Below, piece after piece: positions 28,842 through 29,414 of a DNA stretch of 64,000 nt. The notes below the pieces were generated by a model. It saw nothing but the letters and a program-made list of their open reading frames with translations, was not told the origin of the DNA and made no database searches. Position 1 is the stretch's first letter, and every line of letters starts with the position of its first letter. This stretch comes from an uncultured Sphaerobacteraceae bacterium (GTDB lineage Bacteria > Chloroflexota > Chloroflexia > Thermomicrobiales > UBA6265). Made by a program: the position numbers and the translations under genes. Location: NCBI GenBank assembly GCA_964371945.1, contig CAYJPA010000011.1, forward strand, positions 12,391-76,390. Reading direction: 5' to 3'.

Positions 28842-29414
28842 TCAATCATCGGGGCCGAGGGCCTTCACCCATGCCACCGGCGGCTCGATGCCAAATGCCT
28901 CAGCCATCCGCGGGAAGAGATTAAAAATCGAGGTCGTGAACGCGGCCTCCCACAATTGAGCGTCGTCGAAATCATGGCTTCGGAGAACATCGGTGTCCGC
29001 GTCCGTGATCGATGCTGGCTCGCGAGTCAGCTTTTCGGCAAATGCCAGCAGTGCGCGATCTCCCAAGGACAATGCCGCGCCATCGACATCACCGCGGGCG
29101 AGCGCACTCGCGGCCTGATGATAATCGGCTCCCTGCGACCGCAGGAAGAATGCGTGACTTACCGTTCAGTAACGGCACCCTAAGAGCTTCGAAACGTGCG
29201 TGGCGATCATTTCCCGTTGCGCGCGGGTGAGGGCGGTGTCGGGTCCAAAATGAACGGCGCTGAGCCCGAACATCGCGTCCAGCGCTTCCGGACGGCCGCT
29301 GAACGTCTTGACGATATCAGCCACGCGTCCGCTTCGCGCTCGCTGCTGCGCGTAAAGCTCGGCAATCTCGCCGGTCGCTTCGCCTTCTTCAACCCAGGCG
29401 ATCCGCGAAGTCAT
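28842..29414 (-). CDS. carboxymuconolactone decarboxylase/AhpD-like peroxidase-related protein with an in-frame TGA at 29166..29168 (candidate selenocysteine codon, otherwise a nonsense pseudogene)
   Basis: One continuous frame joins track ORFs 29166..29636 and 28842..29072. ATG 29414 is preceded by GGAGGA. The motif HVSKLLGCRY-TGA-TVSH matches the family pattern C-x-Y-C-x-x-x-H, with TGA at the second Cys. Confidence 0.6.
29129..29148 (-). promoter_or_regulatory. SECIS-like stem-loop downstream of the in-frame TGA
   Basis: mRNA CUUCCUGC-GGUC-GCAGGGAG. 8-bp stem (one G.U pair), GGUC apical loop, starting 17 nt after the UGA. Confidence 0.4.

What the first reader, a model, noticed from the sequence alone, without database searches (positions are those of the whole stretch)
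28842..29414. AhpD/CMD-like gene with an in-frame TGA at the redox Cys position plus a SECIS-like hairpin: candidate selenoprotein
The two minus-strand track ORFs 29166..29636 and 28842..29072 are a single frame. Reading through the TGA at 29166..29168 gives a 190-codon product (MTSRIAWVEEGE ... THVSKLLGCRY-TGA-TVSHAFFLRSQ ... DRALLAFAEKLTREP ... ALGPDD). A GGAGGA ribosome-binding site precedes the ATG at 29414.

The TGA falls exactly where carboxymuconolactone-decarboxylase/AhpD-type proteins carry the second Cys of their C-x-Y-C-x-x-x-H redox motif.

Seventeen nt downstream the mRNA can form CUUCCUGC-GGUC-GCAGGGAG (29129..29148). This is an 8-bp stem with a G-starting apical loop, within the spacing tolerated by bacterial SECIS models. 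As I recall, AhpD-like proteins are among the known bacterial selenoprotein families.

The competing explanation is a one-nucleotide TGC/TGT-to-TGA nonsense mutation, that is, a fresh pseudogene. The 108 codons after the TGA remain open and family-like, which argues against old decay.
Basis: partly seen in the sequence, partly recalled or inferred. Interest (0 to 1): 0.7.

Follow-up and report, generated by a model that had tools for sequence, protein, structure and literature searches.

The report
Selenocysteine-containing AhpD-like redox protein gene
This is very probably a real gene for a small antioxidant-type (AhpD-like) protein whose in-frame TGA encodes selenocysteine rather than stop; it is a correct call, but it belongs to a selenoprotein family described since 2005.

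Summary
One minus-strand reading frame (29414..28842) is interrupted only by a TGA at 29168..29166. An 8-bp hairpin with a GGUC loop starts 17 nt downstream.

The selenoprotein reading is strongly supported.
- The read-through product passes the curated cut-off of NCBIfam TIGR01926 in one stretch that spans the TGA.
- The TGA replaces the second Cys of the AhpD relay motif E-x11-C-x-Y-C-x3-H.
- All ten closest database homologues (59-84% identity) are half-proteins broken at this codon.
- On DNA, the seven orthologous loci of the clade that cover this codon, and 157 of 166 wider relatives, carry TGA there. The other nine relatives have Cys.
- The hairpin has the same nucleotides in every clade member, including six synonymous sites (Fisher p = 6e-5).
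- Distant relatives have a different, covarying hairpin in the same register. Most Cys forms have none.
- The hairpin meets all four published bacterial SECIS constraints.
- The TGA is identical in four independent metagenome assemblies, so it is not a base-call error.
- TGA ends other genes in the window, so the genetic code is standard.

Not shown: Sec machinery (none in the window ORFs scanned) and actual selenium incorporation.

AhpD-like/TIGR01926/CxxU is a catalogued selenoprotein family. This is a new, probably Chloroflexota-affiliated member of it.

The parts
28842..29414 (-). Complete coding sequence of the AhpD-like selenoprotein: 190 residues, ATG at 29414..29412, internal Sec codon, terminal TGA stop at 28844..28842.
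   Evidence: Translation. With U replaced by C it scores 104.3 bits on TIGR01926, above the cut-off of 81.8, in one stretch covering residues 3-177. It also hits Pfam CMD PF02627. PDB relatives 2pfx and 2oyo align across residues 25-179 in one stretch.
29166..29168 (-). In-frame TGA, codon 83: the proposed selenocysteine codon, at the position of the second Cys of CxxC.
   Evidence: TGA at the homologous codon in 79 of 85 metagenome loci and 78 of 81 genome loci; the rest have TGC or TGT. Identical in four independent assemblies.
29129..29148 (-). SECIS-like hairpin: 5' arm 29148..29141, apical loop GGUC 29140..29137, 3' arm 29136..29129.
   Evidence: -11.7 kcal/mol. Identical in seven clade members, including six synonymous sites, against 3 of 28 invariant elsewhere (Fisher p = 6e-5). 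Register and covariation test on 80 loci. Meets the bSECIS constraints quoted in PMC13188914.
29175..29177 (-). TGC codon of Cys80, the first Cys of the C-x-x-U motif.
   Evidence: Invariant Cys (TGC or TGT) in all aligned loci (columns 4-6).
29419..29424 (-). GGAGGA ribosome-binding site, 4 nt upstream of the ATG.
   Evidence: Read directly from the sequence. The start position agrees with the N-termini of orthologues.
28804..28823 (-). Possible intrinsic terminator hairpin with a T-rich tail, 19 nt after the stop codon. Weak.
   Evidence: Consensus scan: 1 site found against 1.5 expected by chance, so not significant on its own.

Best explanation
The region 29414..28842 (minus strand) is one intact gene for a 190-residue AhpD-like thiol/selenol oxidoreductase of the 'peroxidase-related enzyme' subfamily TIGR01926. 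Its codon 83, UGA, is decoded as selenocysteine.

**How the recoding would work (inferred).** While the ribosome translates the mRNA, the hairpin CUUCCUGC-GGUC-GCAGGGAG lies inside the coding sequence, with its apical loop 25 nt after the UGA. It acts as a bacterial SECIS element. [quoted passage not shown] It delivers Sec to the A site in competition with release factor 2. This step is inferred from the established bacterial mechanism and is not shown here.

**What the protein would do (inferred by homology).** The product carries the AhpD proton-relay constellation Glu68 / Cys80 / Tyr82 / Sec83 / His87. This corresponds to Glu36 / Cys48 / Tyr50 / Cys51 / His55 of PA0269 and to Glu118 / Cys130 / His132 / Cys133 / His137 of M. 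tuberculosis AhpD. The selenolate of Sec83 would be the attacking nucleophile, either on a peroxide or on an oxidised partner such as a peroxiredoxin sulfenate. Cys80 would then resolve the intermediate into a selenenyl-sulfide. From my recollection of the M. tuberculosis AhpD work, Cys133 is the nucleophile there. The physiological substrate and partner are unknown.

**What is shown.**
- The frame, the motif and the family membership.
- Conservation of TGA and of the hairpin across orthologues.
- RNA-level constraint on the hairpin.
- Reproducibility of the base call.
For: 1. **One protein, not two.** The TIGR01926 profile and the PDB homologues align in a single stretch across the TGA.
2. 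**Position.** The TGA aligns with the second Cys of CxYC in the Cys-type homologues P0011-P0014 and in 2pfx and 2oyo.
3. **Conservation in close relatives.** The ten closest proteins in a database of 5.8 billion (59-84% identity) are all fragments. They either end in ...C-x-Y or start 1-2 residues after the TGA. On DNA, L001-L007 and the Chloroflexi MAG locus L087 all have TGA there.
4. **Conservation in distant relatives.** 79 of 85 metagenome loci and 78 of 81 genome loci at 36-43% identity have TGA.
5. **Selection on the RNA.** Codons +7 to +12 (TTC CTG CGG TCG CAG GGA) are invariant in seven clade members. Only 3 of 28 other degenerate codons with a conserved amino acid are invariant (Fisher p = 6.2e-5).
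6. **Structural register.** On 80 loci, 80.1% of cells pair, against 38-46% when the partner is slid. The covariation score is 0.338 against at most 0.108, and 0 of 500 shuffles reach it. Compensatory series such as CG to UA occur.
7. **Sec forms against Cys forms.** A hairpin meeting SECIS-type rules is present in all 147 distinct TGA forms; 128 of them are at or below -7.5 kcal/mol and the median is -9.8. Six of ten Cys forms have none.
8. **Published bSECIS constraints.** The published limits are loop 3-9 nt, stem 4-16 bp, G in the first two loop positions, 16-37 nt from UGA to loop, and at most -7.5 kcal/mol (PMC13188914). The hairpin here gives 4 nt GGUC, 8 bp, 25 nt and -11.7 kcal/mol.
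9. **Base call.** The exact 82-residue N-terminal product ending at this stop is indexed in 43 blocks of the collection. Four assemblies from different samples are 100% identical over the gene plus 200 nt on each side.
10. **Standard code.** TGA is a true stop elsewhere in the window. For example, acetate-CoA ligase ends at TGA and aligns to the end of its profile.
11. **Known family.** 'AhpD-like protein, TIGR01926, CxxU' is a listed selenoprotein family.
Against: - No selA, selB or selD was found among about 40 larger window ORFs scanned, and no tRNA-Sec was found anywhere in the window. The rest of the genome is not available.
- No Rfam SECIS family matches, even at E <= 10. This is expected for gene-specific bacterial SECIS elements.
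- As a single sequence the local fold is only marginally better than shuffles: z = -1.86.
- The stem codes for a conserved peptide, FLRSQG. The nearest Cys-type homologue, L167, keeps 7 bp of the same stem. Part of the stem's conservation could therefore come from protein and codon-usage constraint.
- No experimental evidence of Se incorporation exists.
Confidence: 0.92

Rival explanations
1. Fresh pseudogene: a single TGC/TGT-to-TGA nonsense mutation has just inactivated a Cys-type AhpD-like gene.
For: A single nucleotide separates TGA from TGC or TGT, and no Sec machinery is visible in the 64-kb window.
Against: - The same TGA occurs in every orthologue examined at 56-81% identity, and in 157 of 166 more distant relatives from many phyla.
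- The downstream 107 codons are intact and conserved in all of them.
- A hairpin under synonymous-site constraint follows the TGA.
- Independent nonsense mutations at one codon in more than 150 lineages are not credible.
Confidence: 0.01
2. The UGA is read through or recoded without selenium. Possibilities are near-cognate Trp/Cys insertion, Cys-tRNA(Sec) insertion, or termination that leaves a functional 82-residue peptide. The hairpin would act only as a generic read-through stimulator.
For: Nothing here measures selenium. Sec machinery was not observed in the window.
Against: - The codon sits precisely at a catalytic redox Cys, in a family with documented CxxU selenoprotein members.
- The hairpin has the SelB-type signature of a small loop starting GG/GU at the canonical distance, in all 147 distinct TGA forms.
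- An 82-residue product would lack half of the CMD fold.
Confidence: 0.05
3. Sequencing or assembly error, or an alternative genetic code in which TGA is a sense codon throughout.
For: None beyond a-priori possibility.
Against: - Four independent assemblies from different samples are identical over the gene plus 200 nt on each side, and at least 23 contigs carry the same truncated product.
- Many well-aligned window genes terminate at TGA, so the code is standard.
Confidence: 0.01

Closest known systems
AhpD-like selenoprotein family (COG2128 / TIGR01926, motif CxxU). It was first described from the Sargasso Sea (Zhang, Fomenko & Gladyshev 2005, PMC1088965). It is abundant in GOS as 'AhpD-like 1' (PMC2398784) and is listed in the 2026 review PMC13188914 and in BSepDB (PMC13326102).
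   Same: - The same HMM family, scored above its cut-off.
- The same CxxU motif, with Sec replacing the second Cys.
- A SECIS hairpin inside the coding sequence with G at the start of a small apical loop.
- Cys-containing homologues exist.
   Different: - This sequence belongs to a small, divergent clade. It is only 36-43% identical to the Acidobacteriota, Poribacteria and Myxococcota forms recovered here, and its nearest named relative is a Chloroflexi MAG at 62%.
- The clade has its own hairpin: an 8-bp stem with a GGUC tetraloop, instead of the 6-7 bp stem with a CGGGCC-type hexaloop of the others.
- Its members are all annotated as split half-genes in the databases searched.
NCBIfam NF041238, AhpD_rel_CFYUT, 'alkylhydroperoxidase-related (seleno)protein'.
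   Same: A related C-[FR]-Y-U-T active-site motif. Residues 5-177 align to model positions 153-334.
   Different: That family is a 357-position, two-domain protein. The score here is 77.9 bits against a cut-off of 175, so this protein is not a member.
Cys-type AhpD-like proteins with solved structures: 2pfx, 2oyo, 3c1l, 2prr, 6k40, PA0269 (2o4d), and M. tuberculosis AhpD (1knc/1gu9).
   Same: All-helical CMD/AhpD core. Proton-relay residues E-x11-C-x-[Y/H]-C-x3-H, as described in PMC3141380, are all present at identical spacing.
   Different: - Sec replaces the second Cys.
- Canonical AhpD (TIGR00777) scores only 19 bits against a cut-off of 192.
- No NCBIfam or Pfam family of any kind matched the immediate neighbours, so no AhpC or other partner is identifiable.
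E. coli fdhF SECIS. This is recalled from memory and was not tested here.
   Same: Location just 3' of the UGA within the ORF. As I recall, the fdhF apical loop also reads GGUC, and its G and U contact SelB.
   Different: - The loop starts 25 nt after the UGA here, against about 18 nt in fdhF as I recall.
- There is no bulged U in the stem.
- The stem sequence is unrelated.

Membership tests
AhpD-like selenoprotein (TIGR01926, CxxU) | Protein matches the TIGR01926 'peroxidase-related enzyme' model above its curated cut-off. | tested here: met
   104.3 bits against a cut-off of 81.8. One stretch, residues 3-177 on model positions 1-174 of 178.
AhpD-like selenoprotein (TIGR01926, CxxU) | In-frame UGA at the second position of the CxxC redox motif (CxxU), aligned with Cys in homologues. 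| tested here: met
   C80-R-Y-U83. Cys homologues P0011-P0014 read CPYC, CHYC, CRYC and CAYC. PDB 2pfx and 2oyo read CFYC and CLYC.
AhpD-like selenoprotein (TIGR01926, CxxU) | The UGA is conserved in orthologues, and the coding sequence downstream of it is conserved. | tested here: met
   TGA in L001-L007 and L087, and in 157 of 166 wider relatives. The downstream halves are 59-78% identical.
AhpD-like selenoprotein (TIGR01926, CxxU) | Bacterial SECIS: apical loop 3-9 nt with G in its first two positions, upper stem 4-16 bp, 16-37 nt from UGA to loop, at most -7.5 kcal/mol (PMC13188914). | tested here: met
   Loop GGUC (4 nt), stem 8 bp, 25 nt, -11.7 kcal/mol. Covariation and register test. 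Synonymous-site constraint.
AhpD-like selenoprotein (TIGR01926, CxxU) | Host genome encodes selA, selB, selC (tRNA-Sec) and selD. | not testable with these tools
   No tRNA-Sec anywhere in the 64-kb window, and no selA, selB or selD among about 40 larger window ORFs scanned. No tRNA-Sec in the fetched loci either. Chloroflexota MAGs are among the selenoprotein-rich genomes in BSepDB.
AhpD-like selenoprotein (TIGR01926, CxxU) | Selenium is actually incorporated at the UGA. | not testable with these tools
   Needs 75Se labelling or mass spectrometry.
AhpD-type peroxidase-related oxidoreductase (catalytic core) | Proton-relay residues Glu, Cys, Tyr/His, Cys, His at spacing E-x11-C-x-[Y/H]-C-x3-H. 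| tested here: met
   E68, C80, Y82, U83 and H87. These match Glu36/Cys48/Tyr50/Cys51/His55 of PA0269 as described in PMC3141380. E, C and H are invariant in the clade alignment.
Canonical AhpD (TIGR00777; AhpC-coupled, M. tuberculosis type) | Match to the AhpD equivalog-level model, and genomic linkage to ahpC. | tested here: not met
   19.1 bits against a cut-off of 191.95. The flanking ORFs have no peroxiredoxin hit or any other family hit.
NF041238 AhpD_rel_CFYUT (seleno)protein | Full-length match to the 357-position model above 175 bits. | tested here: not met
   77.9 bits, covering only model positions 153-334.

The most novel reading that the evidence does not exclude
The window gene and its roughly 15 split-annotated relatives may form an uncatalogued, Chloroflexota-affiliated subfamily of AhpD-like selenoproteins. 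The relatives are L001-L008, L087, P0002, P0004-P0007 and P0010.

Three features would set the subfamily apart.
- It has a lineage-specific SECIS: an 8-bp stem with a GGUC tetraloop, fixed at every synonymous site.
- It has no linked peroxiredoxin partner.
- Its nearest Cys-type homologue, L167, retains the stem but has lost the GGU loop. That would be a natural snapshot of a Sec-to-Cys (or Cys-to-Sec) conversion with a decaying or nascent SECIS.
Probability: 0.35. Interest if true: 0.3.

Novelty: new member of a known kind. Interest (0 to 1): 0.25.

Why it matters
- **Annotation.** Every gene caller that touched this gene and its orthologues split it into two 'hypothetical' halves. The correct product is a single 190-residue selenoprotein.
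- **Physiology.** The result implies that the source organism, probably of Chloroflexota affinity, uses the selenocysteine decoding trait and needs selenium for part of its redox defence.
- **SECIS modelling.** The data set gathered here has about 150 TGA forms with hairpins that covary in register and 10 Cys forms. It is a clean natural example of how a bacterial SECIS is embedded in coding sequence. It could help train SECIS or selenoprotein predictors.
- **Limits.** It does not open a new biological question, because the family and the mechanism are established.

Tried and rejected
- **First genome-contig scan.** The single protein found no confirmed relative. The source species is apparently not among the GTDB representatives. 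A second scan with an alignment worked.
- **Rfam.** No SECIS family at gathering threshold or at E <= 10, only chance-level snoRNA and sRNA matches. These were rejected as noise.
- **Single-sequence folding.** z = -1.86, which is not decisive alone.
- **Sec machinery in the window.** NCBIfam or Pfam on about 40 ORFs, plus ARAGORN. No selA, selB, selD or tRNA-Sec was found.
- **A second selenoprotein gene in the window.** A scan for an in-frame TGA flanked by high-GC3 coding signal gave nothing credible. My filter was strict enough to miss the AhpD-like gene itself, so this negative is weak.
- **Synteny.** tblastn of window ORFs against all fetched loci found no conserved neighbourhood. The downstream partners differ: RDD protein in L001, PALP enzyme in L003-L005, nothing identifiable in the window. 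There is therefore no operon-based clue to function.
- **Promoter and terminator scan.** No sigma-70-like promoter was found. One weak terminator-like hairpin is at chance frequency.
- **Alternative genetic code.** Considered and rejected, because TGA terminates well-aligned genes.

Full report
**1. The observation**

On the minus strand, 29414..28842 is a single frame: 82 sense codons, TGA at 29168..29166, 107 sense codons, then a stop. GGAGGA (29424..29419) lies 4 nt before the ATG. The active-site stretch reads R-E68-MIATHVSKLLG-C80-R-Y82-[TGA]83-TVS-H87. The hairpin CUUCCUGC-GGUC-GCAGGGAG occupies 29148..29129. It starts 17 nt after the TGA and folds at -11.7 kcal/mol. Every coordinate in the finding is correct. 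As a single sequence the local fold is only marginally unusual: z = -1.86, and 8 of 200 shuffles fold as well. The case therefore had to be made by comparison with other sequences.

**2. What the protein is**

With Cys substituted for the TGA, the 190-residue product has these matches:
- NCBIfam TIGR01926 'peroxidase-related enzyme': 104.3 bits against a cut-off of 81.8, in one stretch (residues 3-177) that runs across the TGA.
- Pfam CMD, PF02627.
- Solved 'uncharacterized peroxidase-related proteins' 2pfx, 2oyo, 3c1l and 2prr, at E = 1e-20 to 4e-17. These are again single stretches across the site, with their CFYC or CLYC aligned to C-R-Y-TGA.

The five residues of the AhpD proton relay described for PA0269 (Glu36/Cys48/Tyr50/Cys51/His55) and for M. 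tuberculosis AhpD (PMC3141380) are all present at identical spacing. Sec takes the place of Cys51/Cys133. Two related models are not passed: canonical AhpD (TIGR00777) and the two-domain NF041238 'CFYUT (seleno)protein'.

**3. Is the TGA conserved?**

A search of 5.8 billion proteins returned ten close homologues at 59-84% identity. All are half-length. Eight start one or two residues after the TGA position. Two end in ...C-R-Y. This is the signature of gene callers stopping at a conserved in-frame stop.

DNA of six such contigs (L001-L006) shows TGA at exactly this codon, with an open, conserved frame on both sides.

A metagenome scan with an alignment of the read-through proteins gave 80 more loci. 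Together with L001-L006, 79 of the 85 loci with a recognisable motif have TGA and 6 have TGC or TGT.

A scan of one genome per GTDB species gave 80 loci, with 78 TGA and 3 TGC. They come from MAGs of Acidobacteriota (Thermoanaerobaculia), Poribacteria, Myxococcota, Planctomycetota, Gemmatimonadota and others. The nearest is a Chloroflexi MAG (CFX8, L087) at 62% identity.

A fresh nonsense mutation is therefore excluded.

**4. Is the hairpin real?**

- *Synonymous sites.* Within the close clade (window, L001, L002, L003, L006, L007, L087; 56-81% protein identity) the 20-nt hairpin is identical. The six codons that form it (TTC CTG CGG TCG CAG GGA) are invariant at their synonymous sites. Only 3 of 28 other degenerate codons with a conserved amino acid are invariant (Fisher p = 6.2e-5).
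- *Register and covariation.* The 36-43% identity relatives have a different hairpin centred on the same position. It is typically GACCUC-CGGGCC-GAGGUC, with compensatory variants GAUCUC/GAGAUC, GACUUC/GAAGUC, GACCUG/CAGGUC and GAGUUG/CAACUC. On the ungapped 80-sequence alignment, the helix in this register pairs in 80.1% of cells, against 38-46% when the 3' partner is slid by 1-3 nt. The covariation score is 0.338 against at most 0.108. None of 500 shuffles reaches it, and six of eight pairs show double-sided changes.
- *Sec forms against Cys forms.* A simple search used these rules: stem at least 5 bp, loop 3-9 nt with G in its first two positions, loop 16-37 nt from the TGA. It finds such a hairpin in all 147 distinct TGA forms. 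The median is -9.8 kcal/mol and 128 are at or below -7.5. Six of ten Cys forms have none.
- *Published model.* The window hairpin satisfies all four constraints of the published bacterial SECIS model (PMC13188914): loop 4 nt (GGUC), stem 8 bp, 25 nt spacing, -11.7 kcal/mol.
- *Rfam.* No matching family exists. This is unsurprising, because bacterial SECIS elements are gene-specific.

One caveat applies. The stem encodes the conserved peptide FLRSQG. The nearest Cys homologue (P0011/L167, CPYC) keeps 7 bp of the same stem with a CGAAGC loop. Part of the stem's conservation may therefore be protein-driven. The loop and the third-position invariance are the RNA-specific signals.

**5. Artefact and code checks**

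The exact 82-residue N-terminal product ending at this TGA is indexed in 43 blocks of the assembly collection, and 23 contigs carrying it were read. Four of them, from different ENA samples, are 100% identical to the window over the gene plus 200 nt on each side. The TGA is not a consensus error. TGA is also the terminator of many well-aligned window genes, for example acetate-CoA ligase, which aligns to the end of its profile. The organism therefore uses the standard code.

**6. What could not be shown**

No tRNA-Sec was found anywhere in the window, and no selA, selB or selD among about 40 larger window ORFs scanned. The gene's neighbours have no family assignment. There is no conserved synteny with orthologous loci, so context gives no clue to a partner or substrate.

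**7. Mechanism**

- *Shown.* An intact, conserved AhpD-like ORF with a conserved UGA at the catalytic position. A conserved, covarying hairpin under synonymous constraint, at SECIS distance.
- *Inferred from the established bacterial pathway (PMC13188914).* SelB, GTP and Sec-tRNA(Sec) bind the hairpin's apical part and decode the UGA as Sec.
- *Inferred by homology (PMC3141380).* The Glu68, water, His87 relay activates residue 83. The selenolate attacks a peroxide or an oxidised partner, and Cys80 resolves the intermediate to a selenenyl-sulfide. I recall from the M. tuberculosis literature that the second Cys is the nucleophile. This fits Sec occupying that position, but it was not checked here.

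**8. Comparison with what is known, and novelty**

'AhpD-like protein' (COG2128, CxxU) was reported as a new selenoprotein family from the Sargasso Sea in 2005, with 27 sequences (PMC1088965). It is the fourth most abundant family in GOS, with 299 sequences (PMC2398784). The 2026 review lists it as 'AhpD-like protein, TIGR01926, CxxU' (PMC13188914), and it has its own family page in BSepDB (PMC13326102). The window gene passes every defining test that could be run.

It is a new, divergent member of this family, probably of Chloroflexota affinity, with a clade-specific SECIS. It is not a new kind of element. Interest is low to moderate. The result is a solid annotation correction and a nice comparative SECIS data set, but nothing in it would surprise a specialist.

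**9. Verdict**

This is very probably a genuine selenocysteine-encoding gene (confidence about 0.92). Novelty: new member of a known kind. Interest: 0.25.

Noticed in passing
window 42532..42606 (+): A tRNA gene (Rfam 46.8 bits) that ARAGORN cannot type. The anticodon stem GGUCC/GGAUC encloses an 8-nt loop CCCCCCAA, from a run of eight C, with no U33 and a nominal 4-base anticodon 'cccc'. The C8 run is identical in four independent assemblies (L175-L178), so it is not a random homopolymer error. It lies next to a Gp49-family gene called in the matching assemblies (upstream of it) and an IS1-like transposase fragment (42875..43465). It could be an expanded-anticodon tRNA-Gly(CCC)-like gene that reads +1 frameshifts or quadruplets, or a decayed tRNA at an integration site. 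It is not tRNA-Sec.
   Followed up: partly
L167 1319..1918 (metagenome contig Ga0683542_0156091), codons after CPYC: The nearest Cys-type homologue (P0011, 37% identity) encodes the same FFLRSQG peptide. It keeps 7 bp of the window's SECIS stem (CUUCCUG...CAGGGAG), but the loop is CGAAGC instead of GGUC. This may be a relic or a precursor of a SECIS at a Sec/Cys switch. A second CMD-family gene follows it directly (1915..2529).
   Followed up: partly
L043, L054, L055, L063, L064, L075, L162, L166 (about 12-30 nt after their TGA): A subgroup of the TGA-containing relatives, with motif C-H-Y-U-[IL]-x-H-H, uses a third hairpin type. It is GCGGAG-GGU-CUCCGC (or GGGAG-GGU-CUCC), and it sits closer to the UGA, with the loop 16-18 nt after it. 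SECIS position and sequence have therefore been replaced several times within one protein family.
   Followed up: no
window 14768..19329 (+): A four-gene cluster resembling a group-3b (sulfhydrogenase-type) NAD(P)-linked [NiFe] hydrogenase. It has HydB/ShyB-like, HydG/ShyC-like, small-subunit (PF01058) and large-subunit (PF00374) genes. No in-frame TGA was noted in the large subunit.
   Followed up: no
window 27500..32700: The ORFs flanking the selenoprotein gene have no Pfam or NCBIfam match. They are 27860..28312 (+), which has a signal-peptide-like N-terminus, 29701..30408 (-), which is hydrophobic, 30440..31612 (-) and 31323..32681 (+). Together they form an orphan-gene patch between an HAF-repeat protein (26268..27407) and a large LuxR/TPR-type regulator (33017..35665).
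   Followed up: partly
L002 about 2480..2733: In one orthologue contig (ENA ERZ25039573 contig_34475) the N-terminal half upstream of the TGA is frame-shifted relative to its near-identical relatives L003-L005. This is either an assembly indel or a decaying copy.
   Followed up: no
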